DNA of 64,000 bases from an uncultured Actinomycetota bacterium (GCA_963718995.1 CAVRAP010000008.1:1236-65235); one strand, 5' to 3'. Counted from the first letter of the stretch, positions 5,471 to 64,000 are shown. Notes: generated by a model from the letters alone, not told the origin. Numbers and translations are program-made.

Positions 5471-5480
5471 GCTTTCACTA

Positions 5481-5498: not shown

Positions 5499-5512
5499 TG
5501 CTCCCTGAGCCA

Positions 5513-6373: not shown

Positions 6374-6386
6374 GGGTAGATGCCTC

Positions 6387-7174: not shown

Positions 7175-7817
7175 TGGGCTCCATGATAAGAAGTGAGACG
7201 GCGCCGTCAAGGACCGTTGCCGGAACCTCAACAATCCGCAGCGATCGTCCCGAGGCCGAAGGTCCGGCCACCGAGAGAACCGACCGCCGGCCGCGGATGC
7301 CCACCACGGCTCTGCCCTCCGGACGACACAACGCATCGGCAACGTCCCGCGCCCGGGCGGGTGGGAAAACAGCCCTGAATACGGCGCTTTCCCACCCCGA
7401 AGGCTCCTCGAGGGCGTCGCCCCGCTGCACATCGACATTCTCGAGGCCCAGTCGCCGTACGGCCCGCCGGGCCAGATCGAGTCGGCGGTCCGACCGATCC
7501 AAGAGGATGATCTGGGTCTGTGGCCAGAGAATCGCCAGGGGAATACCAGGGAGGCCAACGCCCGCACCAACGTCGAGCACCTGGCTAGGAGGACCATCCG
7601 GCCATCCGACGGCAAAACTGAGGGAGTCGGCGATATGGCGGGTCCAGATCCGCTCAGACTCGTGCGGTCCGATGCCCCCGGCTCGCACGGCCTCGTCGTT
7701 CAACCACGTCACGAATGATTCGAGTTGCGTCCACTGCGCTGAGGCCAGGGGTTCCGGCCATTTCAGCCAGCCGAGGATCCGCCCGACAGCCTCACGGCCC
7801 TCCTCAGCATGTTTCAC
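7164..7817 (-). CDS. rsmG: 16S rRNA (guanine527-N7)-methyltransferase RsmG (GidB)
   Basis: SAM-binding LDVGAGVGLPG motif; conserved position between jag and parA. Confidence 0.85.
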   Translation of the reverse strand: MKHAEEGREAVGRILGWLKWPEPLASAQWTQLESFVTWLNDEAVRAGGIGPHESERIWTRHIADSLSFAVGWPDGPPSQVLDVGAGVGLPGIPLAILWPQTQIILLDRSDRRLDLARRAVRRLGLENVDVQRGDALEEPSGWESAVFRAVFPPARARDVADALCRPEGRAVVGIRGRRSVLSVAGPSASGRSLRIVEVPATVLDGAVSLLIMEPSEH

Positions 7818-7825
7818 GTGAAACT
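7810..7825. promoter_or_regulatory. parS centromere-like site (TGTTTCACGTGAAACT)
   Basis: 15/16 match to the parS consensus TGTTNCACGTGAAACA; overlaps the rsmG start codon. Confidence 0.75.
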
Positions 7826-7841
7826 CGAGGGATGCCCCTAC

Positions 7842-8771
7842 TTACTCGTCGGCCGCAATGACGACCGAGCGCCGTGGCTCTTCGCCTTCCGAATAGGTCC
7901 GGAGGCCTTCCATCTCGCCAATGGTGTCGTGAATGACCTTGCGCTCCGCAGCATTCATGGGTTCGACCATGACTTCACCGCCCTCGTCTAGGACCTGTTG
8001 GCCCAAGCGCTGGGCATAGATCTTCAGCGCTTCGCGCCGACGCTCTGCATATCCGGCAATATCGAGTCTGATTCGGGCAGATTCCTGGGTCTTTCGCTGC
8101 ACAACCGTCTTGGCCAACTCGTGAATGGACTGCAGAATCACGCCTCGCGACCCCACCAGCGCCTCGGTTTCGCTCCCGAGCACATCCGCGTAGATGATAT
8201 CGTCGTCAACTCGTGTCTCAACGGTTCCCTCGAGGCCGAACGCTCCGAGCAGACCCTCGAGGAATTCGCCCACGACGCTGGCCTGCTCTTCTCGGCTCAC
8301 GCTTTTCTCCTTTGGTTGTGTATCAGATGTTTTGCCGTCGCCGGCCTTGGCGGAACTTGCTGGAGTTCGTTGCTTGCCCGACGGGTTCGACCGACGAGAG
8401 GACCCCGCTTGTTGGGCCTGGCCGGACTTCTTTTGTTGATCGCGCCCCTGCCCGGAACGGCCCACCCGGTCTCGACCTTGGCCAGAAGCTGATCGCTGAT
8501 CGCCTCTTTGCCTGGAGCTGCCTGCTTGGGAACGCTCTTCCCGGGTGCCGTCGCCCTTACCCTTGGCAGAACGGGTGCGGCGCCGCTTCTTCGGACGGGG
8601 TTTCACACGGACGACGGCGTCGGTACGGCCAATGCCCAGAAAGCCTTTTTCGGGCTCCTGGAGCACCTCGACGTCTACATCATCACGGGATTCGATGCCC
8701 AACTCAGCCAACGCGGCCTCAACGGCTACCTCAACGGAAGGTCCTTTGACTTCTACCCACTCCACGGTCAC
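7842..8771 (-). CDS. jag: Jag/KhpB-family RNA-binding protein (Jag_N, KH, R3H) with a long basic low-complexity linker
   Basis: Jag N-terminal domain, C-terminal KH-R3H (GSRGVILQSIHELA...RKVIHDTI); conserved yidC-jag-rsmG order. Confidence 0.8.
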   Translation of the reverse strand: MTVEWVEVKGPSVEVAVEAALAELGIESRDDVDVEVLQEPEKGFLGIGRTDAVVRVKPRPKKRRRTRSAKGKGDGTREERSQAGSSRQRGDQRSASGQGRDRVGRSGQGRDQQKKSGQAQQAGSSRRSNPSGKQRTPASSAKAGDGKTSDTQPKEKSVSREEQASVVGEFLEGLLGAFGLEGTVETRVDDDIIYADVLGSETEALVGSRGVILQSIHELAKTVVQRKTQESARIRLDIAGYAERRREALKIYAQRLGQQVLDEGGEVMVEPMNAAERKVIHDTIGEMEGLRTYSEGEEPRRSVVIAADE

Positions 8772-9619
8772 TTCCTCCTGCGCCGTTTGCGCTTCTTGGC
8801 TGACACCGGCTGCGAGACCGGCTTAGGCGGTGTTTCTACGGGATCGGGTTCCGGTTCCCGGGGGGCCGGTGTTGGACGGCCATCCATCTTGAAGATCAAC
8901 GCCTGTTGGCCGATCCGGAAGAAGTTGGCCGTGATGAAGTAGACGTTCAACCCTGCCGGGAAGGTGTACGCAAAGAAGCCGAACATCAGGGGCATGATCT
9001 TCGTGATCATTTGCATCTGCCGAGCCTGGTCGCTGTCCTGTTTCTGCCCGCGCGTCGTCTGCCATTGCTGGAAGTACGCGGTGCCCAGGACGACGAGCAC
9101 GGCCGCGAAATAGGGGAGGGCCGTGCCGAGGTCGAAGCCCGTGTCGGCACCGACGATCTCGCTTGGCGCCTTGCTGAGGTCCATGCCGAGGAACCTCTGC
9201 GGCGCCGTACTCAGTGCCTGGTAGAGAGCGGAATCCGCCGGAACGAAGGGAATCTGCTCAACACCGTCGGTGGACACATTGAGCGGGTTTCTGAGCAACC
9301 GGAATAGCCCGAACCAGATAGGCATTTGGATCAGCATCGGGAAGAGGCAGCCGGCCGGGTTGACGCCCTTTTCCTTGTAGAGCGCCATCATCTCTTTCTG
9401 GAGCGTCTCCTGCTCGTCCTTGTATTTCTTCTGGAGTTTCTTGACTTCCGGCTGGATTTCGGTCATGGCCCTCGTCGAACGCGTCTGTTTGAGGGTCAAG
9501 GGGAACATCAGCACATTGACCACGAGCGTCAGGAAAATTATGGAAAGCCCGTAGTTTGGGATGATTTCGTAGAAGAACGTCATCGGAACGGCGATGATCC
9601 TGGCCAGTGTGTCGAGCAT
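8768..9619 (-). CDS. yidC: membrane protein insertase YidC (short actinobacterial form)
   Basis: 60 kDa inner-membrane insertase core with five TM helices; 4-nt overlaps with neighbours. Confidence 0.9.
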   Translation of the reverse strand: MLDTLARIIAVPMTFFYEIIPNYGLSIIFLTLVVNVLMFPLTLKQTRSTRAMTEIQPEVKKLQKKYKDEQETLQKEMMALYKEKGVNPAGCLFPMLIQMPIWFGLFRLLRNPLNVSTDGVEQIPFVPADSALYQALSTAPQRFLGMDLSKAPSEIVGADTGFDLGTALPYFAAVLVVLGTAYFQQWQTTRGQKQDSDQARQMQMITKIMPLMFGFFAYTFPAGLNVYFITANFFRIGQQALIFKMDGRPTPAPREPEPDPVETPPKPVSQPVSAKKRKRRRRK

Positions 9620-9882
9620 TAGCGGTCTTTCCTAGAGGTGGCGGGTACCGGGTCGTATCCGCCCTCAGCGAGCGGATGGCACCGGCCGATTCGTTTCATT
9701 CCCATCCACGTTCCCCGCATCAGCCCGAAACGGCCAATGGCCTCGTAGGAATAGCTGGAACAGGTAGGGGAGTAACGGCAGTTCTTGCCCATGGAGGGCG
9801 AAAAGGCTTTCTGGTAGGTGCGAATAGCGGCGCGCCCCAACCAGGCCGCCGGCCCGGTTCTTCTTGCTTCGAGATCATCCAC
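9619..9882 (-). CDS. yidD: membrane protein insertion efficiency factor YidD
   Basis: [10 protein letters not shown]...[15 protein letters not shown] signature; GTG start at 9882 (alternatives 9897 or 9933) overlapping the rnpA 3' end. Confidence 0.75.
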
Positions 9883-46520: not shown

Positions 46521-46613
<93 letters not shown>

Positions 46614-52412: not shown

Positions 52413-52530
52413 GCCGCTCCTTCGGATAGATCGAAGAGGAGCGAAAGCGCCACCTCATCGATCAGGCCTTGGCACCGTGATCCCGGGGATCGGTTGCCGC
52501 GGTTTCGTCGGGCCTGTCCCTCCACCGCTC
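52413..52530 (-). promoter_or_regulatory. SAM-I (S-box) riboswitch in the metH leader, with an SD-sequestering expression platform
   Basis: Minus strand: CUCAUCUUGAGCGGUGGAGGGACAGGCCCGACGAAACCGCGGCAACC...ACGGUGCCAAGGCCUGAUCGAUGAGG matches S-box P1-P4 conserved positions; downstream GCUCCU...GGAGCG hairpin occludes the SD before the ATG at 52412. Confidence 0.7.
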
Positions 52531-52640
52531 AAGATGAGTTCGCAGAAGCATACCCTCGGTCGATCGATGGTCAACATGCGGGGTTTTCGTTTACTCCGGG
52601 GTCGACTACCTTTAGCGAGCAAACCCCTCGTGGGGATTGT

Positions 52641-52715
52641 GCGCCCGTAGCTCAATTTGGATAGAGCGTCTGACTACGGATCAGGAGGTTGGGGGTTCGA
52701 GTCCCTCCGGGCGTG
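52641..52715 (+). tRNA. tRNA-Arg (anticodon ACG)
   Basis: GCGCCCGTAGCTCAATTTGGATAGAGCGTCTGACTACGGATCAGGAGGTTGGGGGTTCGAGTCCCTCCGGGCGTG; anticodon loop CTACGGA. Confidence 0.9.
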
Positions 52716-52912
52716 CGCCGTTCGCTGCGCTCACGAACCGAGTTCGGCTTCGCCGAACATCGCCTTGCGTGGGCTTTGCGTTGTCAATCTCCGATGGCGC
52801 TGCGGGGTTTCGGTCATCTCCCGCCGAGTTCCAGGCTGCCTGGCCGGCGACCCGGGCAGGTGGCTGGTCATCTCGCACAGGACGTACCCATCCCCGGTCC
52901 TACACTCCTGTG

Positions 52913-54160
52913 ATGCCCAATTCGTCCGCTGTTCCTGCGCGCTCCTTTGTGGGGTGGCGGATTCTTGCCTTGGCTGTTCTGACCGCCGCGTTGACCGGTC
53001 CGGGTCAGACCATCGGGGTCTCCGTCTTCGTTGACTCCTTCATCCAGGATCTCGACTTGCAGAGATCAGCGGTGGCCGCTGCCTATCTCATCGGAACACT
53101 GGCCGCTGCGCTTGCCTTGCCGACAGTGGGGCGCCGCATCGACTCGCTCGGCGTGCGCCGGGGCATGACGATCATTGGATCTGCCTTTGTATTGGCTCTC
53201 ATCCTGATGTCACGGGTGTCAGGGTTCGTAACCCTGACGGCCGGATTTGTGCTGATCCGCATGCTGGGTCAGGGTTCGTTGTCGTTGGTCTCGACCGTGG
53301 CGGTGACCCTGTGGTTCGAGAGGCACCGCGGTCTAGTACTCGGAGTCCTGGCCACCGGATCAGGCATGCTCATGACCTTGGTCCCGATCGGTTCGAACGC
53401 TCTCATCGACTCCATCGGTTGGCGATCCGCCTGGTTGGTGCTTGCCGGTGTCGTGGCGCTGACCGTGGTTCCCATCGGATGGTTCGGCATGATCGACAGG
53501 CCCTCCGACCGAGGCCTCGCTCCCTACGGCGTGAAATCGTCGGACTCGACCGAAAGGCGCAGCGTTCGCCGGTCGTTCACTCGGCCCGAAGCCGTGCGGA
53601 CTGCCCGATTCTGGATCCTCGTTGCGGGTTCTACGTCGGCTGGCATGCTCATCACCGCCCTGAACTTCCACCAGATCTCGCTGCTCGGGGACGCCGGCCT
53701 CACGACCGCCGAGGCGGCCGCTATGTTTCTCCCCCAGTTCGTCGGTACGGCCATGGCCGGGATCGCCTTCGGGTGGATCAGCGACAGGCTGACCGGTCGC
53801 ACGCTCATTCCGTTAGTCATGGCGGTTCTCGCGATCACCTTGCTCCTGGCGGGGACACTGACCGATGGCCCAATCGTCCTGGTCTATGCCCTCTTGCTCG
53901 GCGCCACGGGCGGAGCCTCCCGGAGTGTTGGGAGCACATTGATGCCCCGCTGGTTCGGCGTCGACCACATCGGGTCGATCACGGGATTGGCAACGCTGGT
54001 CTCGGTGGCCGGCACGGCGGTCGGCCCTGTCGCGTACTCGCTGGCCCGGGACGTGACCGGTACCTACACCACGGTTTCTCTGGTCATGGTTTCTGTGCCG
54101 CTGCTGGTCGCCTTGGCAGCCATCGCCGCCGGGCAAAGGATGACGGCCGGAGCCGGGTAG
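52913..54160 (+). CDS. MFS transporter (12 TM)
   Basis: Twelve predicted helices, MFS motif A-like GRRIDSLGVRRG; ATG at 52913; the longer track ORF overlaps the tRNA and is rejected. Confidence 0.8.
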   Translation: MPNSSAVPARSFVGWRILALAVLTAALTGPGQTIGVSVFVDSFIQDLDLQRSAVAAAYLIGTLAAALALPTVGRRIDSLGVRRGMTIIGSAFVLALILMSRVSGFVTLTAGFVLIRMLGQGSLSLVSTVAVTLWFERHRGLVLGVLATGSGMLMTLVPIGSNALIDSIGWRSAWLVLAGVVALTVVPIGWFGMIDRPSDRGLAPYGVKSSDSTERRSVRRSFTRPEAVRTARFWILVAGSTSAGMLITALNFHQISLLGDAGLTTAEAAAMFLPQFVGTAMAGIAFGWISDRLTGRTLIPLVMAVLAITLLLAGTLTDGPIVLVYALLLGATGGASRSVGSTLMPRWFGVDHIGSITGLATLVSVAGTAVGPVAYSLARDVTGTYTTVSLVMVSVPLLVALAAIAAGQRMTAGAG

Positions 54161-54327
54161 CGAGTCTGTTACCCATGCTGCACCAGTGGTTGGTGGAGCG
54201 GGTGGTCACGTGGGTGGCCCGCTGGTCAGGGGTCGACAGGCCGTTTGAGTGAGGAACTCGGTCGAAACGGAATCCCCCTCGCTGGTGTGCCCGCCGCAGC
54301 CGTCAAGGTCCGTGTACGGATGTTTCC

Positions 54328-55735
54328 TTAGGGTTGCCGGAAAGGGACGGAGTCGGCGATCGGCAAAGAGATCCGGACTGTTGCGCCCCCGCCGGGCGTG
54401 CCGGTGATGGCGACGTCACCCTGGTGCGATGAGACAACCTCGCGGACGATGGCCAGTCCGAGGCCGGCGCCTCCCTTGGTTCGGTCCCGGCCCCGATCCG
54501 GTCGTGCGAATCGGTCGAACACCAACTCGCGTTCGGATTCGGCTATCCCCGGTCCATGGTCGGCGACGGTGATGTGAGCGTGGGCATCGGTGCGATGCGC
54601 CTCCAGCTCAATCGGGGTAGACGCTCCGCCGTAGGCGACGGCGTTGGTGATGAGGTTTTCGATGGCCTGCCGCAACCAGACGGGATCGGCGTCGACCATG
54701 ATTGATCCGTCGGTGTCGACACGGATGTCGCAACCGGTGGAGATACGCATATCCTCGGCGATGTCCTTCACGAGGGCGCCGACATCCAGGCGCTCACGGC
54801 CGGAGCCGATCTCTCGATCGAGGCGGGCGAGCGCCAGCAGATCTTCAATCAACCGCCCGGCGCGATGGCTGGCTTCATTGATACGTTCCATCGCCCGATC
54901 GAGCTTCGGGCCCGGCTCCACCCCGCCTTCGGCGTAGAGCTCGGCGTATCCGGTGATGGCTGCAATCGGCGTCCGCAGCTCGTGGGAGGCATCGTCGGCA
55001 AAGCGGCGGAGGCGCTCGGCCTCGCGCAGGCGGTCCCGGTCGGCGCTCTCGATACGGGCGAGCATGTGGTCGAGTGCCGTCGCCAGTCTTCCGAGCTCGG
55101 TACTTGACTGGACCAGGTCGGCCCTTTTCGTGAGGTCACCCTCGGCGATGGCGCCGGCGGTGTCGATCATGTCGTCGACCGGTCGGAATCCTCTTCTGAG
55201 CAGCAACCACGCGACCGTGATTCCCGCCAGCGCCGCCATCAAGCTGACGGCCAGCGAGATCAAGACCGTTTGGCGGGCCGCCAAGTCCACTGAGTCCAGG
55301 GACCGGGCGAGCAGCTCATATCCATCGGGGCTCTCCCGGACCAAGGCGCGCACCGATCCCGAACCATCGATTGTCGCCCAGCGTGACGAAGGTTCCGGCG
55401 CTTCCACCCAGGTCTGCCTCGGTCAGATTGCTCACGTCCGGCAGGGGTTCAGGCTCGTCGGCGTACCCGGCGGGCTGTTCGAAGACGACCTCGCCATTCT
55501 GGTTGAAGCGAATCAGAGCGAAAGGTTGGAAGGGCTCGTCGCCGGGGGCGGGCACGGCCGGACTGGGACCGGGACCGGGTCGGGTGGAGAAGGCCAGCAG
55601 GTCTTCGTCCACCCGATCGATGAGAACCCGTCTGGTCGTCAGCGAAACGGCGGCGGCGATAGAGGCGCTGACAATGAGGATGATGAGCCCGACCACGATG
55701 GTCAGGCGACGCCGCAGCGTCCACGGCCGGCTCAT
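54328..55735 (-). CDS. two-component sensor histidine kinase (TM sensor, HAMP, HisKA, HATPase); one apparent frameshift between 55316 and 55407
   Basis: N-terminal TM plus sensor in ORF 55316..55756, remainder in ORF 54328..55407 (H-box DDASHELRTPIAAITGYAEL; N, G1, G2 boxes); ATGA overlap with the response regulator stop. Confidence 0.8.
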
Positions 55736-56424
55736 GGACCGGAGGAGCGCAGGCAATAGCCGAACCCGCGCACGGTGTGGATGAGCTTGGGACGGCCTTC
55801 GTCGACCTTCTTGCGGAGCTGTGACACCGCGGTCTCGATCACCGAGTCGCTGTACTCGTACCCCCAGACGGCTTCCAGGATCTGCGCCCGGGACAGGACT
55901 TGTTCGGCGTTCGCCAGGAGGTAGCGGAGCAAACGGTATTCGACCGGCGAAAGGCTGATTTCGTCGTCTCCCCGCGACACGCGATGCTGCGCATCGTTCA
56001 GGACCAGATCGGCACAGATCAGCTCGATCGTTGGCCGCCGGATTCCGCCGCTACGCCGCAGGAGGGCCTCCACCCGCAACCGCAGTTCCTCCAGCCTGAA
56101 CGGCTTCGTGAGGTAGTCATCGCCGCCGGCCTCAAACCCGGCTCGCAGGTCCTCGATGTTGGATCGGGCGGTGAGGAACAGCACCGGCAGGTCCGGGTCG
56201 GTGCTGCGCAAGCTCCTGGCCACCTGAAAGCCGTCGGGTTCTGGCATGTTGACGTCCAGAATCACCAGGTCCGGCCGCTGAGTTCGCACGGTGTTGAGGG
56301 CTGCGAGGCCGTCGGTCGCTACCACGATGTCGTACCCGGCGAAGCTCAGCGCGTCGCTGACCATGTCGAGCAGCATCTGCTCGTCGTCCACAACGAGGAT
56401 CTGTGCCTTGGCAGCATCGGTCAT
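55732..56424 (-). CDS. OmpR/PhoB-family response regulator
   Basis: Receiver domain (ILVVDDE, phospho-acceptor D in LVILDVNMP, K in YLTKPF) plus winged-helix trans_reg_C. Confidence 0.85.
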   Translation of the reverse strand: MTDAAKAQILVVDDEQMLLDMVSDALSFAGYDIVVATDGLAALNTVRTQRPDLVILDVNMPEPDGFQVARSLRSTDPDLPVLFLTARSNIEDLRAGFEAGGDDYLTKPFRLEELRLRVEALLRRSGGIRRPTIELICADLVLNDAQHRVSRGDDEISLSPVEYRLLRYLLANAEQVLSRAQILEAVWGYEYSDSVIETAVSQLRKKVDEGRPKLIHTVRGFGYCLRSSGP

Positions 56425-56499
56425 CGCCACAACTCTAGGGTCGCCGGCTGCGTCCCCTTCATCGTTCGGTAGCGATCGCGATCGGCCAAACATCCCGGC

Positions 56500-57945
56500 C
56501 TACCTCTCGACCACGGTCTCGAGGAACGCCATCCGATCAGCGACCCATTGACGTTTCGCCGCTGCGGCTCTTTCGAGCTCGGTATCGGTCACGAACTGCC
56601 GGTCGGCATTGCTTGTAACCAGTAGCCCCGAGTACTCGTCGATGAGATCGGCGACGCCATCACCCGCAAACAGGATCTCGTAGAGCTCGGCGTAGCGCTG
56701 CTCGTAGGCAGCCAGGAACGAGTCGGTGGCCAGGAACCGATCGACCAGGGGGTTGTTGTAGTCGAAGGTCACGTCACCACCACCGACTCCGGGCTCATTG
56801 GCGATCCCGTCGAGGGGTGGGCCACCTCCTCCCGGCCCTGCCGGCCTCTCGCCGCCCGCACCATCTGCACCGCCGGCGCCGGATCCGGTGAGGTTGCTCC
56901 AATCTGGCAGCAACACGGTGCTGGGTTCGGTCGAGGCCATCCAGAAGCCGCCGAAGCTCTCGTTGAGGTCCCAGGCCAACACCGTGGACCGGTCATCACC
57001 GGCGTCGTACCACAGGTAGTAGTTGTTGCCGTTCCCGGGCATCGAATCGACGCTGACCAGCAGGTTGTTGACGGCGACGTAGTTCACGAACGATTCGATG
57101 TCGAGCCAGTCCTCCAGCTCGGCCTCGAACTCCTCGTCGGTGGAGGTGTCGACGAACTCGAGGAAGTCGATCAACGGCTCCAGATCCGCCTCATTCGTGG
57201 CGGTCTCCTGGGTGAAGGCGCCTTCATAGGCGGTCGGGTCGTGGCCGAGATAGGTGAACGAGTCCCCCGATTGGGCCTTGTAGAGCACTCCGTCATCGTC
57301 GAAGAGCCGTTCGACGTAGCCGTTGTCGAGGAGTTCGACCACCACCCGCAGGGTCTCGGCTTCACCGTTGATGGAGAGCCCGGTGTAGCTCGTCCCGGGG
57401 AACGGCAGTCCGGCGATCTCGAGGACCTCGGCGGTCACCATCTCCTCGAGAATCAGTTCATCTCCCCGGGGTCCCTCGGTGCGGAGGGCCAGTTCCGAGA
57501 ACCCCTGATAGGTGACGCCCGAGGTGTACTCGTCCAGCTTCACCAGAAACGGAATGTCGTCGGGGTCGGCACCGCCCTGCAGCGCCGTGCGGAGCGTCGA
57601 GTTTCCCTTGATGCGCACTCCGACGTCTTCGATGGTGACGCCGTCGATGGTGATGTCGGCGAGGAAATACTCCTTCTCACCGGTCTGTGTGTAGATGGTG
57701 ATGGCGGCCTCTAGATCGGACTGATCGAAGTCGAGCGCGATCGTGTGCACCACGGAGTCGTCGAATAGGTCAACAACATTGGTGTAGTCGACGCCAACGC
57801 TGGTGGATGACCCCGCCTCGTTGTCGCCTCCTGTACCTACATAGGCAATGATGCGCGTCTGGCCGCCCACCAGTGCCAGGGTCACCGCCAGCGCCACCAT
57901 GCCCAGCGGGATCTTCCAATGTCTGCGCCACCTTGTGCTCATCAT
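56500..57945 (-). CDS. CotH-family protein (atypical secreted kinase fold) with signal peptide and Gly-rich low-complexity insert
   Basis: Signal peptide MMSTRWRRHWKIPLGMVALAVTLALVGG; CotH motifs NNYYLWYD and WDLNESFGG. Confidence 0.75.
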   Translation of the reverse strand: MMSTRWRRHWKIPLGMVALAVTLALVGGQTRIIAYVGTGGDNEAGSSTSVGVDYTNVVDLFDDSVVHTIALDFDQSDLEAAITIYTQTGEKEYFLADITIDGVTIEDVGVRIKGNSTLRTALQGGADPDDIPFLVKLDEYTSGVTYQGFSELALRTEGPRGDELILEEMVTAEVLEIAGLPFPGTSYTGLSINGEAETLRVVVELLDNGYVERLFDDDGVLYKAQSGDSFTYLGHDPTAYEGAFTQETATNEADLEPLIDFLEFVDTSTDEEFEAELEDWLDIESFVNYVAVNNLLVSVDSMPGNGNNYYLWYDAGDDRSTVLAWDLNESFGGFWMASTEPSTVLLPDWSNLTGSGAGGADGAGGERPAGPGGGGPPLDGIANEPGVGGGDVTFDYNNPLVDRFLATDSFLAAYEQRYAELYEILFAGDGVADLIDEYSGLLVTSNADRQFVTDTELERAAAAKRQWVADRMAFLETVVER

Positions 57946-57951
57946 GTTCTC

Positions 57952-58635
57952 CTACAGATCAGAGCTGCCGTATCCCGTGAGCAGCGTCACCTTCTGGTTC
58001 TCGTTGAGGCGCTTGATCTCAGCCAGGAAGGCTTGCCGGTTGGTCGATGGTTTCAGGGCGATGGCGTACACCACCTCGGTCAACATCCCGCCGCGGACCG
58101 AATCGACGCTCACCAATTCGGCCCGTTCGGTGTTCCTGGTCAGGAGGTCGTCGAGCACCGTCTCGAAGGGGATGTCATTGGTGACCTGCACCTTCAGCAT
58201 CTGGGAGACGCTGGTGCGGTCATACCAGTTGAACCTGCTCATCAGCATCACAACCATCGAGATGACGGCGGTGGCGATGATGGCCAGCAGGTAGAAGCGG
58301 GTGCCGGCGGCCATGCCGATGGCCATGGCAAAGAACACGAATCCGACATCGCGGGTCTCTTTGATCGCATTGCGGAACCGGATGATGGAAAGCGCACCGA
58401 CCAGCGAAAAGGCCCGGGCGATGTTCGAGCCAACTACCAGCATGATGACACTGACGATCATTCCCATCAGTACCAGGGTCTGCACGTAGCTCTTCGTGTA
58501 CGACGCTCCCTCGTGGGTGCGCATGTACACCCACCCGACGATGGCCGTGAGCACAAAGCTCAGGACCATGCTGATCACTACATCCGCCACCGTGAAGGTG
58601 CTGGTCAGGTCCTCGAACAGAAATAGCTCATCCAT
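57952..58635 (-). CDS. DUF4956-family integral membrane protein
   Basis: Three or four TM helices and the conserved LVGALSIIRFRNAIKETRDVGFVFFAMAIGMAAG segment. Confidence 0.75.
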   Translation of the reverse strand: MDELFLFEDLTSTFTVADVVISMVLSFVLTAIVGWVYMRTHEGASYTKSYVQTLVLMGMIVSVIMLVVGSNIARAFSLVGALSIIRFRNAIKETRDVGFVFFAMAIGMAAGTRFYLLAIIATAVISMVVMLMSRFNWYDRTSVSQMLKVQVTNDIPFETVLDDLLTRNTERAELVSVDSVRGGMLTEVVYAIALKPSTNRQAFLAEIKRLNENQKVTLLTGYGSSDL

Positions 58636-59433
58636 GGGTTCTTACCTTTCGTAGGTTCAGTCGTTGGTCGTCAAAGAAGAAAATCGAGCGGGGGGTCAGT
58701 TCGGCCGCTTCGAGGCTCTGGCAATACTTCGAGATCCGGATCAGCTCGCAGTCGTGGCGGGCAACCAGCTCGGTCAGCCAGAAGGGGATGCGTTCATTGA
58801 CCTTGACCTCCATGACCTCCCACGAAGGGTTGATGGCCGGCAGGCCCGGCCCGGGAGAGGTCAGGTCGAGGTCCCGGGAGCGGTACCGGATGTCTTTGTC
58901 GAAGGTGACCCGGAGGCCTGGATCGGGCTCCCGGCCCACGTACGCCTCTCTCTCGTAGAGCGTGATCACCGCCCGCCGTAAGTCGTAGTACAGGGTCATG
59001 GAGGCAATCTCGTCATAGGTGGCCGTGTCCCTCGGGTCATGTGGGGGGACGATCCCGGAACCACACAGCGCCAGCGCCTCGGCGAGTGGCGCGACGATGC
59101 GCCGTTTCTGGGTCACCCGATTGACCCGCTGCTTGATCTCGGCGAACACCATGGTCGATGGCTCCGGAGCCGGGTCGTAGGAGCGGATTCTGAGCTTCCG
59201 ACGGAACTTGATCCCGTCGAGTTTTTCCCAATAGAACCGGTGGTCTTCGGTGTCGTAGTACAACGATGCCAACGGATACGAACCGGTCGGTCCTGCGTGC
59301 GGGTCGAGGTCGACGTAGTGCACCAAGTCATCCCGAAAGGCGTTCGCCTGGTCCGACGTCAACAGATATTTGAGCTCGAACCGGTTGAACGACCGCACCG
59401 CGCTCGTCGGGTTGGGGTTGATGCTCAGGTGCG
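58590..59433. repeat. copy A of a >=844-bp near-identical direct repeat (partner at 63157..64000)
   Basis: Covers the first 15 codons of the DUF4956 gene plus most of the VTC gene; one nucleotide difference seen (58682 A versus 63249 G, synonymous). Confidence 0.85.
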
Positions 59434-59476
59434 GTTGGGGTTTCTGGCGCGTCGTCATGCCACCACTGTCCACCAC
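58628..59476 (-). CDS. VTC-domain (CYTH-like triphosphate tunnel, polyphosphate-polymerase-domain) protein
   Basis: Hallmark FNRFELKYLL start, YYDT, FAEIKQR, EVKVNE motifs of PF09359; start could be ATG 59476, ATG 59458 or GTG 59431. Confidence 0.8.
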   Translation of the reverse strand: MVDSGGMTTRQKPQPHLSINPNPTSAVRSFNRFELKYLLTSDQANAFRDDLVHYVDLDPHAGPTGSYPLASLYYDTEDHRFYWEKLDGIKFRRKLRIRSYDPAPEPSTMVFAEIKQRVNRVTQKRRIVAPLAEALALCGSGIVPPHDPRDTATYDEIASMTLYYDLRRAVITLYEREAYVGREPDPGLRVTFDKDIRYRSRDLDLTSPGPGLPAINPSWEVMEVKVNERIPFWLTELVARHDCELIRISKYCQSLEAAELTPRSIFFFDDQRLNLRKVRTHG

Positions 59477-59611
59477 GCAACTGGTGGCCCCCCAAGCGCA
59501 AGCTCAGCGTTCCCTCACGATCGTGAATCGAGCGCGGTATCCAAAAGGAACGCCACGGTCGGTTCAACCTGGGAAGCGCCCCCGCCGGGAGCCAAGTTGG
59601 GAGCCATTCGC

Positions 59612-59700
59612 AGTGGACCTGTGTGGACGGCTGTGGACGCCGGTGAAATCGAAAGCCTTTCATTTCGGGCTGTGTGGACGTCTGTGGACGTCTGTGGACG
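59612..59700. promoter_or_regulatory. two clusters of three 10-bp-phased direct repeats (TGTGGACG; CGTCCACAGA on the operon strand) upstream of the VTC operon
   Basis: Units at 59612 (variant AGTGGACC), 59622, 59632 and at 59673, 59683, 59693; phasing typical of OmpR/PhoB-family tandem half-sites; also resembles the DnaA box (CGTCCACA versus TTGTCCACA). Confidence 0.5.
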
Positions 59701-59715
59701 CTGCTTGGAGATCTG

Positions 59716-59755
59716 CGGATCAGGAGGTTGGGGGTTCGAGTCCCTCCGGGCGTGC
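59716..59755 (+). repeat. 40-bp exact copy of the tRNA-Arg 3' half (anticodon loop to acceptor stem); attR-like
   Basis: cggatcaggaggttgggggttcgagtccctccgggcgtgc identical to 52677-52716. Confidence 0.8.
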
Positions 59756-60059
59756 TAGTGAAACCCCTGCGAGAGCGGGGGTTTCGTCGCGAGCAGGGGT
59801 TGGCTCCCGGAAGCAGGTGGACCTTGGGAGCCTTTCTCCATCTGAGGCGGCTTTCGCTTCGAGGTTGCGGCTTGGTGAAGCGTGATATATGCGGATGCGT
59901 GAAGACGCTATTCCCGCCCGGGATCGGCCGTTTCGCCGAGCGACCGGACAATCTTGCGAGCCTCCTCGCCCCGAAGGGATTGAGACACGATCTTGGGCGT
60001 AATGTTGTTCGTGTTCAGGTTTTGGCCGCATTCGCTCCCTGTATAAGTGGAGGATCAGA

Positions 60060-60557
60060 GTGGTCGAGGCGCTCAACCGGGAGATCAACGTTTCGAGAGG
60101 GTCGGAACTCGATGGTTTCGACCGGCTGTATAGAGAACAGGCATCTCGCTTGTGGCGGGCGCTTACCGCGTACACGGGCAGTCGCGACGTGGCACAGGAT
60201 GCGGTCGCTGAGGCTTTCGCGCAAGCGATTGCGCGCGGCGGAGAGATTCATTCACCGCTGCAGTGGGTGTGGAAGTCCGCATATCGAATCGCAGCTGGTG
60301 AGCTGAAGCGACGTGGAGCATTCACCGAGTTGGTGACCGATCATCCGACGACGGCAGACGAACCAGCGTCGGAGGTTCGAGCGGCGTTGATGAAGCTGTC
60401 GCCGATGCAGCGCTCGGCGGTGGTGTTGCACTACTACGCGGGTTATCCGGCTGCCGAGATCGCCCGAATCACCGGCTCGACCGCCGCTGCAGTGTGGGTG
60501 CACTTGAGTCGGGGACGGCGCCACATGGCCCAGTTGCTGGAGGTAGACGATGACTGA
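60060..60557 (+). CDS. ECF sigma factor
   Basis: Region 2 (DVAQDAVAEAFAQA) and region 4 (LSPMQRSAVVLHYYAGYPAAEIARITGSTAAAVWVHLSRGRRHM); GTG start with SD GGAGGA. Confidence 0.8.
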   Translation: MVEALNREINVSRGSELDGFDRLYREQASRLWRALTAYTGSRDVAQDAVAEAFAQAIARGGEIHSPLQWVWKSAYRIAAGELKRRGAFTELVTDHPTTADEPASEVRAALMKLSPMQRSAVVLHYYAGYPAAEIARITGSTAAAVWVHLSRGRRHMAQLLEVDDD

Positions 60558-62061
60558 CTTGCGGGAACGCCTCAGCGAATTGGATCGGCTCGATGCACCT
60601 GATATGCGGGTGAGCATCGATCGGCGTGTCGGCGAACTCCAATCTGCCACCCGTGTGTCACTTGTCCATTCAGCAAGTCCGGTGTGGCGGGGTCCGCTGA
60701 TCGCATTGGCGACGGCTGTTGCGGCCATCCTGGTGGTTGCCGCGTCGATGCTGGTGTTGCGGACGGAACAGCCGGACATGGTCGACGAACCGGCTCCCAC
60801 CTCTCCGACAACGATCGAGGCGCCCGAGACGAGCTCTCCGTCGGCGAATCAGGCTCCTCCGAGATCCCCGGCTTATTACGGTGCAGCCCTCATCGAGTGG
60901 ATGTATGGCGTATGTGACGTTGCGGTTGCGCCGGATGGTCTGGTGTACGCGGCGGCCCCGGCGGGGATCGGCTCAATGGACGCAGCGGGCGAGTGGACCC
61001 TGATCGACATTGCCGGACTCCCGCAGGGCAGACCTCTGGACAACGGGTGGCCGGCTCCGAGGATCGGAAACGTCGCCATCGGCCCCGACGGCGCTCTGTG
61101 GGCGGGCGGCACCTCCTGGTCCACCGTCGACGATGAGGAGTTCGGGGGAGTTATCGCCGAGCCGTTGGGCTCCATGGCGCCGGCGGCCCGGTTCAAGACG
61201 TGGGCGGCACGCTACGACTGCGGTCGGGAACCATGCTCGTGGACGGTGTTCACTACGGACGTGGCTCCCGGAACGGACTTCGACATCGGCGATATGGCGG
61301 TGTCGAGCGACGGAACCGTCTACCTCACCACCGGTGACAACCTGTTGCTCATTCTCGACGGGACCGAATGGGAATCCCACACCGTCCCGGGGCTCCCGAC
61401 CGGCTTCGGTAGCGGCGTGTCGCCGTGGTCGAGTTCGCTGGCGATCGATGCCGATGGTGTCGTGTGGGTGGGCACCAACGCCAATGACGATCCGGGGTGG
61501 GGGATCCCCAGCAGCGACTTTCGCGAAGGGCGCGGTCTGTTCGCTTTCGACGGTACCGATTTCACTCGATACACCACCGAGGACGGGCTTCCCAGCGATC
61601 GCGCCTTCCAGGTGTCGGTCGATGCAGATGGAACTATCTGGGTCGCCACCGACGGCCCTGATCACGTGAATCGGATCGTCGGGGAATATGGGTTTGTATG
61701 GTACGAGGGCCCTAACACGAGCCTGCCGCCGGAAGCAGCAGCCGGGATCGCCGGCTTCGACGGCACCACCTGGACCCCTTACACGGCCGCCGACGGACTG
61801 CTGTCGAACAACGCCGTACTGGCTGCAAGCCCTGACGGGACCATGTGGGCTCTTCACTCTGCGACAACCCCCTACGGGTACTCCCACTTCGACGGCACCG
61901 CATGGACCGCCTATCCGGCCGAACTCCCGGCTGGTGCGTTCCGGACCTTCCGGGCAGAAGTTGCTCCCGACGGGACCCTGTGGACGATCTCAGATCAGGG
62001 TGTGGGTAGCTTCGACGGCATCACCCCAACGATCCACACATCACTGTTTCCCCGCCCGTGA
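60550..62061 (+). CDS. anti-sigma-like membrane protein fused to a two-component-regulator-propeller (Reg_prop) beta-propeller domain
   Basis: 8-nt overlap with the ECF sigma; cytoplasmic N-terminus, one TM (LIALATAVAAILVVAASMLVL), Pro/Ser linker, then ~8 repeats of the DG(T/A)(L/V)W...FDG..WT.Y propeller type. Confidence 0.7.
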   Translation: MTDLRERLSELDRLDAPDMRVSIDRRVGELQSATRVSLVHSASPVWRGPLIALATAVAAILVVAASMLVLRTEQPDMVDEPAPTSPTTIEAPETSSPSANQAPPRSPAYYGAALIEWMYGVCDVAVAPDGLVYAAAPAGIGSMDAAGEWTLIDIAGLPQGRPLDNGWPAPRIGNVAIGPDGALWAGGTSWSTVDDEEFGGVIAEPLGSMAPAARFKTWAARYDCGREPCSWTVFTTDVAPGTDFDIGDMAVSSDGTVYLTTGDNLLLILDGTEWESHTVPGLPTGFGSGVSPWSSSLAIDADGVVWVGTNANDDPGWGIPSSDFREGRGLFAFDGTDFTRYTTEDGLPSDRAFQVSVDADGTIWVATDGPDHVNRIVGEYGFVWYEGPNTSLPPEAAAGIAGFDGTTWTPYTAADGLLSNNAVLAASPDGTMWALHSATTPYGYSHFDGTAWTAYPAELPAGAFRTFRAEVAPDGTLWTISDQGVGSFDGITPTIHTSLFPRP

Positions 62062-62086: not shown

Positions 62087-62668
62087 GTGCCGGGCCAACT
62101 CCGCACCCCGACCAGGAGATGGATGTCATGGAGGCACTTTGTGAGACATCGTGCGGTTCTTCTACTGCCTGTTCTTACCCTGATTCTTGGAGCGTGTGGC
62201 GCCAGTTCCATCACAGGAGATCGGACCTTCGTCTACGGGACTGGCAACTGCGACTGCAACTTCGCTTCGGCGACCGCCGAGGGTGATACACAGATCCTCA
62301 ATGGAACGTGTGTCTGCATAACTCACCTATCCGACCCGAGAGTCAATGGGTACGAAGAAATCCCTATGACCCTGACCATGTTTCCGGACCAGACCCCGGA
62401 AGTGCACTGGTTCGAGTACAACGACGCAACCCTCACCAGCGAAGAAGCCACATGGGGCAAAGGCGAGGGCTTCGGCAGTGAGTTCTTCGACAAGAGTGGC
62501 GGCTTGCTGACTAGTGGATACGCCAGATACCTCGGTGAAGGTACGTTTGACGGTCTCGTGTACGAGTACTTCTACTCGCAGGCTCCCGCCTTCGCTTCGG
62601 AGGACGACCCCCACGAGGGCTATCGGATCTCTGGATGGATCATGCAGGTCCCGGACGAAAAAAACTGA
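62087..62668 (+). CDS. secreted lipoprotein, Cys-rich N-terminal region (function unknown)
   Basis: Signal peptide with lipobox LILGAC; CDC/C.C motifs; start GTG 62087 or ATG 62123. Confidence 0.55.
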   Translation: MPGQLRTPTRRWMSWRHFVRHRAVLLLPVLTLILGACGASSITGDRTFVYGTGNCDCNFASATAEGDTQILNGTCVCITHLSDPRVNGYEEIPMTLTMFPDQTPEVHWFEYNDATLTSEEATWGKGEGFGSEFFDKSGGLLTSGYARYLGEGTFDGLVYEYFYSQAPAFASEDDPHEGYRISGWIMQVPDEKN

Positions 62669-62804: not shown

Positions 62805-63134
62805 ATGCGCAACGTGATGCAACCTACGCTTCGCGCTACCACGGAGTCCGGGGCCGTCTGGGACGATCCTTCGGAGGATCTGCTCTTCGAACTGCTCTCC
62901 GATGTGGAACAAGGAAGAGAGTTGTTTCTCGTTATTCACCGACTCGGCGCTACCGACATGTACATCCAGGTCTTATTGCAAGACGAATGGACTTACCTCG
63001 TCGAGCACCGTGATGGGGGACCGTCATCGCATTTCGCTGCGACGTCCCACGACAAGCGGACCGTGCACGAGGTCCTCACGACATGGGCCTACCAGCTTCC
63101 CGGTGGACGAGCCTGCTCGGTTGGACGTCCGTGA
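62805..63134 (+). CDS. hypothetical small cytoplasmic protein (109 aa)
   Basis: ORF from an internal ATG; no recognisable domain. Confidence 0.45.
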   Translation: MRNVMQPTLRATTESGAVWDDPSEDLLFELLSDVEQGRELFLVIHRLGATDMYIQVLLQDEWTYLVEHRDGGPSSHFAATSHDKRTVHEVLTTWAYQLPGGRACSVGRP

Positions 63135-63156: not shown

Positions 63157-63204
63157 CCGTGAAGGTGCTGGTCAGGTCCTCGAACAGAAATAGCTCATCC
63201 ATGG
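63157..63204 (-). pseudogene. 15-codon remnant of a DUF4956 gene N-terminus (MDELFLFEDLTSTFT-A-stop) at the boundary of the duplicated segment
   Basis: Identical to codons 1-15 of the gene at 58635, then diverges into a stop. Confidence 0.5.
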
Positions 63205-64000
63205 GTTCTTACCTTTCGTAGGTTCAGTCGTTGGTCGTCAAAGAAGAAGATCGAGCGGGGGGTCAGTTCGGCCGCTTCGAGGCTCTGGCAATACTTCGAG
63301 ATCCGGATCAGCTCGCAGTCGTGGCGGGCAACCAGCTCGGTCAGCCAGAAGGGGATGCGTTCATTGACCTTGACCTCCATGACCTCCCACGAAGGGTTGA
63401 TGGCCGGCAGGCCCGGCCCGGGAGAGGTCAGGTCGAGGTCCCGGGAGCGGTACCGGATGTCTTTGTCGAAGGTGACCCGGAGGCCTGGATCGGGCTCCCG
63501 GCCCACGTACGCCTCTCTCTCGTAGAGCGTGATCACCGCCCGCCGTAAGTCGTAGTACAGGGTCATGGAGGCAATCTCGTCATAGGTGGCCGTGTCCCTC
63601 GGGTCATGTGGGGGGACGATCCCGGAACCACACAGCGCCAGCGCCTCGGCGAGTGGCGCGACGATGCGCCGTTTCTGGGTCACCCGATTGACCCGCTGCT
63701 TGATCTCGGCGAACACCATGGTCGATGGCTCCGGAGCCGGGTCGTAGGAGCGGATTCTGAGCTTCCGACGGAACTTGATCCCGTCGAGTTTTTCCCAATA
63801 GAACCGGTGGTCTTCGGTGTCGTAGTACAACGATGCCAACGGATACGAACCGGTCGGTCCTGCGTGCGGGTCGAGGTCGACGTAGTGCACCAAGTCATCC
63901 CGAAAGGCGTTCGCCTGGTCCGACGTCAACAGATATTTGAGCTCGAACCGGTTGAACGACCGCACCGCGCTCGTCGGGTTGGGGTTGATGCTCAGGTGCG
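63195..64000 (-). CDS. second copy of the VTC-domain protein gene (5' end may run off the window)
   Basis: Protein identical to copy A over 256 aa; GTG at 63965 corresponds to internal Val of copy A; the upstream ATG of copy A would lie at ~64010. Confidence 0.75.
   Translation of the reverse strand, partial: HLSINPNPTSAVRSFNRFELKYLLTSDQANAFRDDLVHYVDLDPHAGPTGSYPLASLYYDTEDHRFYWEKLDGIKFRRKLRIRSYDPAPEPSTMVFAEIKQRVNRVTQKRRIVAPLAEALALCGSGIVPPHDPRDTATYDEIASMTLYYDLRRAVITLYEREAYVGREPDPGLRVTFDKDIRYRSRDLDLTSPGPGLPAINPSWEVMEVKVNERIPFWLTELVARHDCELIRISKYCQSLEAAELTPRSIFFFDDQRLNLRKVRTHG

What the first reader, a model, noticed from the sequence alone, without database searches (positions are those of the whole stretch)
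52641..59755. tRNA-Arg-anchored ~7-kb island bounded by a 40-bp tRNA 3'-half direct repeat, with no integrase
The 40 nt from the tRNA-Arg(ACG) anticodon loop to the acceptor stem (52677-52716) recur exactly at 59716-59755. This is the classic attL/attR signature of an element integrated at a tRNA 3' end. The enclosed cargo is an MFS transporter, an OmpR-type two-component system and a CotH/DUF4956/VTC operon. None of it belongs to the conserved mycobacterial-type origin neighbourhood that dominates the rest of the window. I found no tyrosine or serine recombinase between the repeats. Either the island is a decayed remnant, or it was mobilised in trans by an integrase carried elsewhere, possibly on an adjacent tandem element beyond 64 kb.
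Basis: partly seen in the sequence, partly recalled or inferred. Interest (0 to 1): 0.75.

Follow-up and report, generated by a model that had tools for sequence, protein, structure and literature searches.

The report
Integrase-less island array at tRNA-Arg
A 7-kb block of accessory genes sits between an intact arginine tRNA gene and an exact copy of that tRNA's last 40 bases, which is the footprint of mobile DNA that inserted at the tRNA and later lost its integrase; this is a common, already understood kind of genome scar, here in an uncultured Acidimicrobiia bacterium.

Summary
tRNA-Arg(ACG) lies at 52641-52716, and its last 40 nt recur exactly at 59716-59755 (0 expected by chance). MFS, HK/RR and CotH-DUF4956-VTC genes lie between the copies, and no recombinase does.

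The island reading holds, with corrections. The organism is an Acidimicrobiia bacterium, not a mycobacterium.

- In four of the five closest relatives, a tyrosine integrase sits directly beside the same metH-linked tRNA-Arg. One of them (L001) carries a complete 7.1-kb element bounded by a 48-nt repeat of the same tRNA end.
- None of the five carries the window's cargo at this site.
- A 48-nt relic of such an integrase gene's 3' end survives 84 nt after the window's tRNA.
- A metagenomic contig (L084) carries the same VTC-to-HK module at 80% identity. It too lies between two tRNA-Arg fragments and has no integrase, within a tandem array.
- The repeat block next to the distal copy (TTGGGAGCC plus six GTGGAC) is more conserved than synonymous sites.

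This predicts a third tRNA fragment near 64283.

Verdict: a composite, decayed, CIME-like island in a tRNA hot-spot array. It is a known kind of feature, of low to moderate interest.

The parts
52641..52716 (+). Intact tRNA-Arg(ACG). Its last 40 nt (52677-52716) form the proximal att core (attL-like).
   Evidence: ARAGORN; Rfam tRNA at 62 bits; exact 40-mer match.
52801..52848 (-). Relic of the right half of a tRNA-terminator hairpin plus the last codons and stop of an L001-type tyrosine integrase gene.
   Evidence: Local alignment to L001 sequence just downstream of its tRNA scores 42; 200 shuffles gave mean 19.2, sd 2.3, maximum 31. The weak tblastx hit agrees.
52913..54160 (+). MFS transporter. 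It is specific to the window: no homologue in any related locus.
   Evidence: Pfam MFS_1, E = 5.5e-33; start codon and absence from the loci.
54328..55735 (-). Sensor histidine kinase (HAMP-HisKA-HATPase_c), with a frame change near 55375 that separates the N-terminal 130 residues.
   Evidence: Pfam. tblastn with the L084 kinase hits two frames: 55735-55376 and 55374-54352.
55732..56493 (-). OmpR-family response regulator.
   Evidence: Pfam Response_reg + Trans_reg_C.
56500..57945 (-). CotH-family protein.
   Evidence: Pfam CotH, E = 5.6e-40.
57952..58635 (-). DUF4956 membrane protein.
   Evidence: Pfam DUF4956, E = 4.1e-23.
58628..59458 (-). VTC-domain protein (named a polyphosphate polymerase domain protein by the sources), first gene of the operon.
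   Evidence: Pfam VTC, E = 4.9e-46. Identical to P0001, which is on record from a 103,138-bp contig.
59583..59715 (+). Conserved non-coding repeat block next to the distal core: TTGGGAGCC at 59597-59605, and six GTGGAC units at 10-bp spacing in two triplets (59613, 59623, 59633 and 59674, 59684, 59694). Read as recombinase or accessory-protein arm sites.
   Evidence: Repeat family D3; motif counts. 111 of 134 positions are identical to L084, against a pooled third-codon identity of 0.668 (P = 2.6e-5). The block is absent upstream of the same operon in the contigs that lack an att core.
59716..59755 (+). Distal att core: an exact copy of the tRNA-Arg 3' 40 nt (43 nt with one mismatch from 59713). 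It is not a tRNA.
   Evidence: Rfam 22.7 bits, below the 29-bit threshold.
59760..59785 (+). Hairpin with an 11-bp stem. It is homologous to the hairpin that directly follows tRNA-Arg in L001, L002 and L005.
   Evidence: Folding energy -21.4 kcal/mol, z = -4.4; the relatives keep the stem through compensatory changes. blastn of 59713-59788 to L001, L002 and L005.
59824..59832 (+). Second TTGGGAGCC motif, 68 nt after the core. The same motif lies 62-75 nt after both cores of L084.
   Evidence: These are the only two exact copies in the window, against 0.8 expected; alignment A2.
60060..60557 (+). ECF-type sigma factor (region 4 detected).
   Evidence: Pfam Sigma70_r4_2, E = 5.2e-14. 73% amino-acid identity to L087 and L088. 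Homology starts near 60012, upstream of the first canonical start codon.
60550..62061 (+). Protein with Reg_prop (beta-propeller repeat) matches, overlapping the end of the sigma gene. It may be an anti-sigma or sensor partner.
   Evidence: Pfam Reg_prop. 65% identity to L087 and L088, which have no tRNA or core nearby.
62102..62668 (+). 188-aa protein of unknown family. It has a lipoprotein-like N-terminus and low GC (0.564).
   Evidence: No Pfam match; sequence; GC.
62805..63134 (+). Possible 109-aa ORF of unknown family. It ends just before the duplication junction.
   Evidence: ORF list; no Pfam match.
63157..64000 (-). Second copy of 58590-59433 (843 of 844 positions identical), running off the window. 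It holds the first 15 codons of DUF4956 followed by a stop, and a second VTC gene.
   Evidence: Offset-4567 identity profile; the single mismatch is at 58682/63249; truncated DUF4956; junction sequence.

Best explanation
The interval 52717-59715 is the fossil of integrase-mediated insertions at the 3' end of tRNA-Arg(ACG). This tRNA is a recombination hot spot in this Acidimicrobiia clade.

Mechanism (established knowledge for tRNA-targeting tyrosine integrases): an element's attP carries a copy of the tRNA 3' end. Strand exchange within that core rebuilds an intact tRNA at one junction and leaves the displaced 3' half at the other.

The present interval is a composite that can no longer move by itself. 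Its left 1.6 kb (integrase relic plus MFS) is what remains of an L001-type, integrase-bearing element. Its right 5.4 kb (HK-RR-CotH-DUF4956-VTC, the TTGGGAGCC/GTGGAC block and the core) is an integrase-less, CIME-like island, also seen in L084. A deletion removed the integrase and the internal att junction between the two.

The island is one member of a tandem array. The sequence after the distal core again begins with hairpin plus TTGGGAGCC. It carries a sigma/Reg_prop pair and two orphan genes, and it ends in a very recent 4567-bp-offset copy of the island's right end. A third core is therefore predicted at about 64283-64322.

Shown: the repeat, the cargo, the absence of an integrase, the occupancy of the site in relatives, the shared architecture in L084, the conservation of the repeat block, and the duplication. 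Inferred: the order of events, that the repeat block binds a recombinase, and everything beyond base 64000.
For: 1. The 40-nt repeat is exact, with 0 matches expected by chance.
2. The five closest relatives (MetH 80-90% identical) all have metH-tRNA-Arg. L001, L002 and L005 have a Phage_integrase-family gene ending about 35 nt from the tRNA, and L003 has a different integrase.
3. L001 has a complete 7.1-kb element with a 48-nt direct repeat of the same tRNA end.
4. None of the window's cargo is found at this site in L001-L005.
5. An integrase 3'-end relic lies at 52801-52848, scoring about 10 sd above shuffles.
6. L084 shares 80.5% identity over window 54324-59771, including the repeat block and the core. 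In L084 the module lies between two tRNA-Arg fragments 8051 bp apart and has no integrase. Upstream of it lies the distal end of an L002-type element carrying TTTGGTCCG repeats.
7. The repeat block is 83% identical without indels, against 67% at third codon positions and 45% in the adjoining spacer.
8. GTGGAC clusters are absent upstream of the same operon in contigs that have no core, so they are not the operon's regulator sites.
9. TTGGGAGCC flanks the distal core of the window and of L084 on both sides and also follows L084's other core, always in one orientation.
10. Both core copies in the window share a lineage-specific G (52690 and 59729). Every relative copy has A at that position, which indicates exchange between the copies after the lineage split.
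11. The island's right end is duplicated, with a truncated DUF4956.
Against: - No integrase, excisionase, replication or transfer gene lies anywhere in 52.7-64 kb.
- Composition is close to that of the backbone: tetranucleotide z = 2.5-3.6, and GC3 of 0.78-0.86 against 0.72-0.78.
- The five-gene module occurs in six other Acidimicrobiia contigs with different neighbours and no att core, and five of them have no tRNA either (L081, L082/L083, L085, L086, L097, L098). It may simply be a chromosomal operon.
- In L097 an intact tRNA-Arg(TCG) stands where the window has the fragment.
- The left junction of the window lacks the TTGGGAGCC motif.
- No true empty site or shared right-hand chromosomal flank could be identified.
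- Conservation of the repeat block rests on a single pairwise comparison.
Confidence: 0.62

Rival explanations
1. The island, or at least the 4.6-kb unit between the second and the predicted third core, is still a working satellite. It would be an integrase-less element whose att arms are kept by selection. It would be excised and integrated by an integrase encoded on another element of the tRNA-Arg array (cis-mobilisation by accretion) or elsewhere in the genome (in trans).
For: - The repeat block is more conserved than synonymous sites, and the core is 39/40 identical between the window and L084.
- TTGGGAGCC lies on both sides of the distal core of the window and of L084, as arm-type sites do.
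- The lineage-specific G is shared by both cores.
- L084 shows the island in accretion with the distal end of an L002-type element, the type whose integrase sits beside the tRNA in L002 and L005.
- The unit after the distal core has a hairpin + TTGGGAGCC left end and, if the duplication runs on, a complete right end.
Against: - The arm motifs differ from those of the two integrase-bearing element types seen in relatives (CTGGGCCGC in L001, TTTGGTCCG in L002, L005 and L084). Their integrases are therefore not obvious partners.
- No cognate integrase was found in the window or in L084.
- The window's left junction has lost the motif.
- The duplication junction lies inside DUF4956, which points to illegitimate rather than site-specific recombination.
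- No excision products can be observed with these data.
Confidence: 0.25
2. The distal copy is not an att site. It is the remnant of a second tRNA-Arg gene (or a partial tRNA duplication) that natively adjoined the VTC operon. The genes between the two copies are then ordinary chromosomal genes.
For: - L097 has an intact tRNA-Arg(TCG), scoring 68 bits in Rfam. It has the same orientation and a similar distance upstream of VTC.
- The module is chromosomal-looking elsewhere.
- Composition is near-native.
Against: - The fragment matches the genome's own ACG tRNA, including the lineage-specific G. It lacks the T-stem changes of the L097 tRNA.
- A dead 40-nt relic would not stay 39/40 identical while neutral sites diverged to 67%.
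- The conserved repeat block, the flanking TTGGGAGCC motifs and L084's tandem array are unexplained under this model.
- The cargo is missing from this tRNA in L001-L005, where integrases sit instead.
Confidence: 0.1
3. The 844-nt second copy at 63157-64000, and hence the inferred tandem structure, is an assembly artefact of a metagenome-derived contig, not a real duplication.
For: - The window comes from a MAG-like contig.
- Near-identical repeats 4.6 kb apart are typical places for mis-joins.
- The kinase carries a frame change that could be a sequencing error.
Against: - The two copies differ at one base.
- The junction is a clean novel joint inside DUF4956.
- Related contigs L082 and L086 also carry a second VTC gene near the module.
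- This rival would not affect the 52.6-59.8 kb finding itself.
Confidence: 0.1

Closest known systems
CIMEs (cis-mobilizable elements) and tandem accretion of genomic islands. They were described for ICESt1-related elements of Streptococcus thermophilus and for Streptomyces pathogenicity islands, and are reviewed in PMC5704250.
   Same: - The island is flanked by att copies derived from the 3' end of the target gene.
[quoted passage not shown]
- In L084 it sits in tandem with part of an L002-type element at the same site, the type that carries an integrase in L002 and L005.
- The history fits the published three-step scheme: integration, decay, then integration of another element at an att site.
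   Different: - There is no evidence that the ancestor was conjugative (no relaxase, coupling protein or FtsK-like Tra gene).
- The left arm in the window is degraded.
- Mobilisation was not observed.
- The host is an uncultured Acidimicrobiia bacterium, and the cargo is a VTC/DUF4956/CotH plus two-component module.
Classical tRNA-integrated genomic islands and prophages of the tyrosine-integrase type, for example P4-like islands and actinomycete integrative elements (AICEs). The comparison is from my own knowledge.
   Same: - Insertion is at the 3' half of a tRNA gene, from the anticodon loop to the acceptor end.
- A 40-48 nt direct repeat is formed and the tRNA is rebuilt.
- Relatives L001, L002 and L005 show the full version, with the integrase gene adjacent to the tRNA.
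   Different: - The window's copy has no integrase, only a 48-nt relic.
- No phage, replication or transfer genes are present.
- Composition is nearly native.
The L001 element (contig CAVPPF010000005.1, locus positions 2598-9740).
   Same: - It uses the same tRNA, the same core and the same hairpin after the tRNA.
- It has a similar size: 7.1 kb between repeats, against 7.0 kb in the window.
   Different: - L001 has an intact integrase plus SEC-C, DUF6544 and Fic/VbhA-like genes, and CTGGGCCGC arm repeats.
- It shares no cargo with the window.

Membership tests
tRNA-integrated genomic island (integrase type) | Direct repeat made of the 3' part of the target tRNA gene, with an intact tRNA at one end. 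| tested here: met
   Exact 40-nt repeat. The tRNA scores 62 bits in Rfam and the second copy 22.7 bits.
tRNA-integrated genomic island (integrase type) | Integrase gene inside the element, next to an att site. | tested here: not met
   No Phage_integrase or resolvase domain in any ORF tested. tblastn with the L001 integrase gives best E = 0.44. Only a 48-nt relic of the 3' end remains.
tRNA-integrated genomic island (integrase type) | Variable presence at the same site among related genomes. | tested here: met
   L001-L005 share metH-tRNA-Arg but have different content after the tRNA, and none has the window's cargo.
tRNA-integrated genomic island (integrase type) | Base composition or codon usage that differs from the host backbone. 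| tested here: inconclusive
   Tetranucleotide distance z = 2.5-3.6 for 52-58 kb. GC3 is 0.78-0.86, against 0.72-0.78 in backbone genes. Only the two orphan genes at 62.1-63.1 kb are clearly lower in GC.
CIME (cis-mobilizable element) | Lacks integration and transfer genes. | tested here: met
   The same holds for the L084 copy.
CIME (cis-mobilizable element) | Retains functional attL and attR. | tested here: inconclusive
   The right end (repeat block plus core) is conserved above the neutral level. At the left end the core is intact inside the tRNA, but the flanking TTGGGAGCC motif seen in L084 is missing, and an integrase relic lies there instead.
CIME (cis-mobilizable element) | Found in site-specific tandem accretion with another element and mobilised together with it. 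| not testable with these tools
   Tandem arrangement is seen in L084 and implied in the window by the duplicated right end. Excision or transfer cannot be observed from sequence alone, and the sequence beyond 64 kb could not be retrieved.
Prophage / ICE / AICE | Phage structural genes, or relaxase, FtsK-like Tra or Rep genes. | tested here: not met
   All sizeable ORFs in 52.7-63.2 kb have non-mobile Pfam assignments or none. The motif scans of IMG/VR gave only chance hits.

The most novel reading that the evidence does not exclude
The VTC-DUF4956-CotH plus two-component module rides on an integrase-less satellite island. Its att arms (TTGGGAGCC on both sides of the core, plus a GTGGAC array) would be kept by selection because the island is still moved by an integrase encoded on a different element in the tRNA-Arg array or elsewhere. 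That integrase would not be the L001 or L002 type seen here. The island would then be an active cis- or trans-mobilised element spreading a polyphosphate-related module among uncultured Acidimicrobiia. The 4.6-kb unit between the second and the predicted third core would be a newly formed mini-island.
Probability: 0.25. Interest if true: 0.45.

Novelty: new member of a known kind. Interest (0 to 1): 0.3.

Why it matters
The finding documents a tRNA-Arg(ACG) integration hot spot about 40 kb from dnaA in an uncultured Acidimicrobiia lineage. At least three att-arm types use the same core there. It also gives a clear example of how islands at such a site decay, fuse and duplicate.

Practically, it marks 52.7 kb to beyond 64 kb as accessory DNA for anyone doing comparative genomics or binning of these MAGs. 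It also flags a conserved non-coding repeat block that could be used to search for the missing integrase.

It does not open a new class of mechanism. Tandem accretion and integrase-less att-flanked islands are well described in Firmicutes and Streptomyces.

Tried and rejected
- **Source contig beyond 64 kb.** I tried to retrieve it by exact-protein look-ups of VTC (two start codons), DUF4956, MetH and P0001. None is on record, although P0001 shows the contig is 103,138 bp long. The third core therefore could not be checked.
- **Repeats as response-regulator boxes.** I considered that the GTGGAC repeats are binding sites for the operon's own OmpR-type regulator. I rejected this because the same operon and regulator in L081, L082, L083, L085 and L086 have no such repeats upstream (sequences). 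L097 and L098 also lack a GTGGAC array.
- **IMG/VR scans.** I scanned for CAAGTTGGGAGCCATTC and CTGTGTGGACGNCTGTGGAC. The eight hits lie in contigs of 37-54% GC with no extended similarity, so they are chance matches.
- **Empty site.** No relative shows tRNA followed by the 59756 flank and then the sigma gene. The 59756-59788 hairpin does follow the tRNA in L001, L002 and L005, but an integrase gene comes next. L004 has no integrase within 2.75 kb, but its flank is unrelated.
- **Shared cargo.** tblastx between the window and the elements of L001-L005 found none.
- **Other RNA elements.** Rfam found none inside the island, only the tRNA, the sub-threshold fragment and the metH SAM riboswitch.
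- **Faulty query.** The MFS query was in the wrong frame. I repeated it correctly, and it still found no homologue in any locus.

Full report
**Observation.** ARAGORN places tRNA-Arg(ACG) at 52641-52716 on the + strand, and Rfam scores it 62 bits. Its last 40 nt (52677-52716) recur exactly at 59716-59755 on the same strand. There are two matches in the window, and none in 100 shuffles even with three mismatches allowed. The similarity runs to 43 nt with one mismatch, in the first anticodon base. The second copy is only a fragment (22.7 bits, below the 29-bit tRNA threshold). No recombinase domain appears in any ORF tested. tblastn with the nearest relative's integrase finds nothing in the 64 kb.

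**Organism and setting.** The gene upstream of the tRNA is a B12-dependent methionine synthase, preceded by a SAM riboswitch at 52452-52540. A scan of species-representative genomes with MetH returned only Acidimicrobiia and Actinomycetota MAGs, the best at 90% identity (L001). The window is therefore from an uncultured Acidimicrobiia bacterium. The "mycobacterial-type" origin region is simply the general actinobacterial dnaA-gyrA layout.

**The same tRNA in relatives.** Only the five closest relatives (L001-L005, MetH 80-90%) have tRNA-Arg next to metH.
- In L001, L002 and L005 a 369-379-aa Phage_integrase-family gene ends about 35 nt from the tRNA. L003 has a different integrase there (27% identity). 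L004 has none within 2.75 kb.
- L001 holds a complete element. A 48-nt direct repeat of the tRNA end lies at 9693-9740 and 2598-2645, and it encloses the integrase plus SEC-C, DUF6544 and Fic/VbhA-like genes.
- None of the window's island genes occurs at this site in any of the five.

It shows that the tRNA end is a used att core and that the content after it varies between genomes.

**A relic of an integrase.** Eighty-four nucleotides after the window's tRNA, 52801-52848 aligns with the right half of the L001 hairpin plus the last codons and stop of the L001 integrase. The local score is 42, against 19.2 ± 2.3 (maximum 31) for shuffles. The alignment with L002 scores 30, within the range of its shuffles (maximum 32). 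An L001-type element was therefore once present, and nearly all of its integrase gene has been deleted.

**The cargo elsewhere.**
- Homologues of the VTC protein (75-88% identity) come from other Acidimicrobiia contigs.
- In L081, L082/L083, L085 and L086 the block VTC-DUF4956-CotH-RR-HK is conserved at about 70-82% nucleotide identity. Its neighbours differ, and there is no tRNA, core or integrase.
- L098 (VTC 88%) has a kinase-like gene upstream.
- L097 (83%) has an intact tRNA-Arg(TCG) where the window has the fragment.
- The decisive comparator is L084. It matches window 54324-59771 at 80.5% identity, straight through the non-coding repeats, the tRNA fragment and part of the hairpin.
- In L084 the module, together with Lcl_C and a 241-aa gene in place of MFS, lies between two tRNA-Arg fragments that share 42 nt and are 8051 bp apart.
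- The upstream fragment is not a tRNA (24.9 bits). It is preceded by TTTGGTCCG repeats like those at the integrase end of L002 and L005.
- L084 is therefore a tandem array: an L002-type element, a core, the VTC island, a second core, then a Doc-toxin-like reading frame (my reading of the sequence; no Pfam test was run). The visible part of L084 has no integrase.

**att architecture.**
- Next to the distal core the window has TTGGGAGCC (59597) followed by two triplets of GTGGAC at 10-bp spacing (59613-59638 and 59674-59699). After the core come an 11-bp-stem hairpin (-21.4 kcal/mol, z = -4.4) and a second TTGGGAGCC (59824).
- These are the only two exact copies of the 9-mer in the window.
- L084 has the same motif before its repeat block and 62-75 nt after both of its cores.
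- Between the window and L084, the block 59583-59715 is 111/134 identical with one gap column. Pooled third-codon positions of the five genes are 66.8% identical (P = 2.6e-5), and the spacer beside the block is 45% identical.
- The GTGGAC clusters are missing upstream of the same operon in every contig that lacks a core (for L097 and L098). They therefore go with the att site, not with the operon's regulator.
- The integrase-bearing elements have analogous short repeats, but with different sequences: CTGGGCCGC near both ends of the L001 element, and TTTGGTCCG in L002, L005 and L084.
- I read the block as arm-type binding sites of a third, unseen recombinase type. This is inference.
- Both cores of the window carry a G at 52690 and 59729, where all ten relative copies have A. 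This suggests exchange between the two copies after the lineage arose.

- From 58590 to the window's end, the sequence equals that 4567 bp further on (58590-59433 = 63157-64000), with one mismatch at 58682.
- The second copy contains the VTC gene and only the first 15 codons of DUF4956 before a stop. It therefore derives from the intact operon, and the joint at 63156/63157 is a novel junction.
- If the copy continues, a repeat block and a third core lie at about 64164-64322, just outside the window.
- Between the second core and this copy lie an ECF sigma gene, a Reg_prop protein, a 188-aa lipoprotein-like orphan and a possible 109-aa ORF. The sigma/Reg_prop pair is also found without an att site in L087 and L088.

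**Composition.** The island is only mildly atypical. Tetranucleotide distance is z = 2.5-3.6, and GC3 is 0.78-0.86 against 0.72-0.78 in backbone genes. The two orphan genes have lower GC. This fits long residence or an origin within the clade.

**Most likely history** (the order of events is inferred). Elements with tyrosine integrases repeatedly inserted at the tRNA-Arg 3' end. An older island carrying the VTC module and its arms was pushed downstream by a later L001-type element. A deletion then removed that element's integrase and the internal junction, fusing its remains (relic plus MFS) to the VTC island. Later, a 4.6-kb segment spanning the distal att junction was duplicated. In its present form the 7-kb interval is probably immobile.

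**Rivals.**
- The island, or the 4.6-kb unit, is still mobilised by an integrase elsewhere. This is supported by the conservation of the arms but lacks any partner integrase or excision evidence (confidence 0.25).
- The fragment is the remnant of a native second tRNA-Arg gene, as in L097. This conflicts with its 39/40 conservation, its match to the genome's own ACG tRNA, the arm motifs and the array in L084 (confidence 0.1).
- The duplication is an assembly error. This is unlikely given the mismatch and the clean joint, and it does not affect the main finding (confidence 0.1).

[quoted passage not shown] The associated process is tandem accretion at an att site (PMC5704250, read, which also cites Streptomyces examples). 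Two features are met: the lack of mobility genes, and a conserved right att end in a tandem setting. A functional left end is uncertain, and mobilisation is untestable here. The interval is not a prophage, ICE or AICE by gene content.

**Verdict.** The island is real and the reading is essentially correct. Biologically it is ordinary: a new example of a known kind, in a poorly studied lineage. Interest is about 0.3.

Noticed in passing
window 58590-59433 and 63157-64000: A near-exact direct repeat (843 of 844 positions) runs off the end of the window. The second copy has a VTC gene and a DUF4956 gene truncated after 15 codons. The repeat predicts a third tRNA-Arg fragment at about 64283-64322.
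   Followed up: partly
window 52452-52540 (-): A SAM riboswitch (Rfam RF00162, 77 bits) lies in the leader of metH, 100 nt from the tRNA-Arg 5' end. It explains the short conserved blastn hits to L007, L040, L047, L048 and L054.
   Followed up: no
window about 55374-55376: The histidine kinase changes reading frame: its N-terminal 130 residues are in another frame than the catalytic part. This is either a real pseudogene or a sequencing error.
   Followed up: partly
L097 523-597: An intact tRNA-Arg with anticodon TCG (Rfam 68 bits) lies 169 nt upstream of a VTC operon. It has the same orientation as the window's tRNA fragment and is followed by about 21-nt direct repeats (CCGGCAACGCTTCGCGTT) and an ArsC gene.
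   Followed up: partly
window 52690 and 59729: Both tRNA-end copies carry G where the tRNA-Arg genes and fragments of L001-L005, L084 and L097 carry A. In the real tRNA this would make a U-G pair at the top of the anticodon stem.
   Followed up: partly
window 59459-59540; L081 3894-3960; L082 9930-10000; L097 700-765; L098 440-505: A conserved leader of about 70 nt lies in front of the VTC gene in every contig with the module (core GGGAACGCTGAGCTT...CTTGG...ACAGTGGTGGCATG). It has no Rfam match and may be a promoter or a cis-regulatory RNA.
   Followed up: no
L082 17930-18427; L086 14974-16460: Other Acidimicrobiia contigs also carry a second VTC gene (and in L086 a second DUF4956 gene) a few kb beyond the kinase. 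Duplication of this gene near the module is therefore recurrent.
   Followed up: no
L001 16829-16920 and 20067-20158: L001 has two tRNA-Ser(GCT) genes 3.2 kb apart where the window has one (46521-46612). This may be another insertion or duplication at a tRNA.
   Followed up: no
window 60012-60059: Protein-level similarity of the sigma factor to L087 and L088 begins 16 codons upstream of the first ATG/GTG/TTG of the ORF. The start codon may therefore be unusual or damaged.
   Followed up: no
L002 564-1703 and L005 1918-3024: L002 and L005 share a nearly identical integrase element (about 93% at protein level), although their MetH proteins are only 87% and 80% identical to the window's. This suggests recent transfer of that element between lineages.
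   Followed up: no
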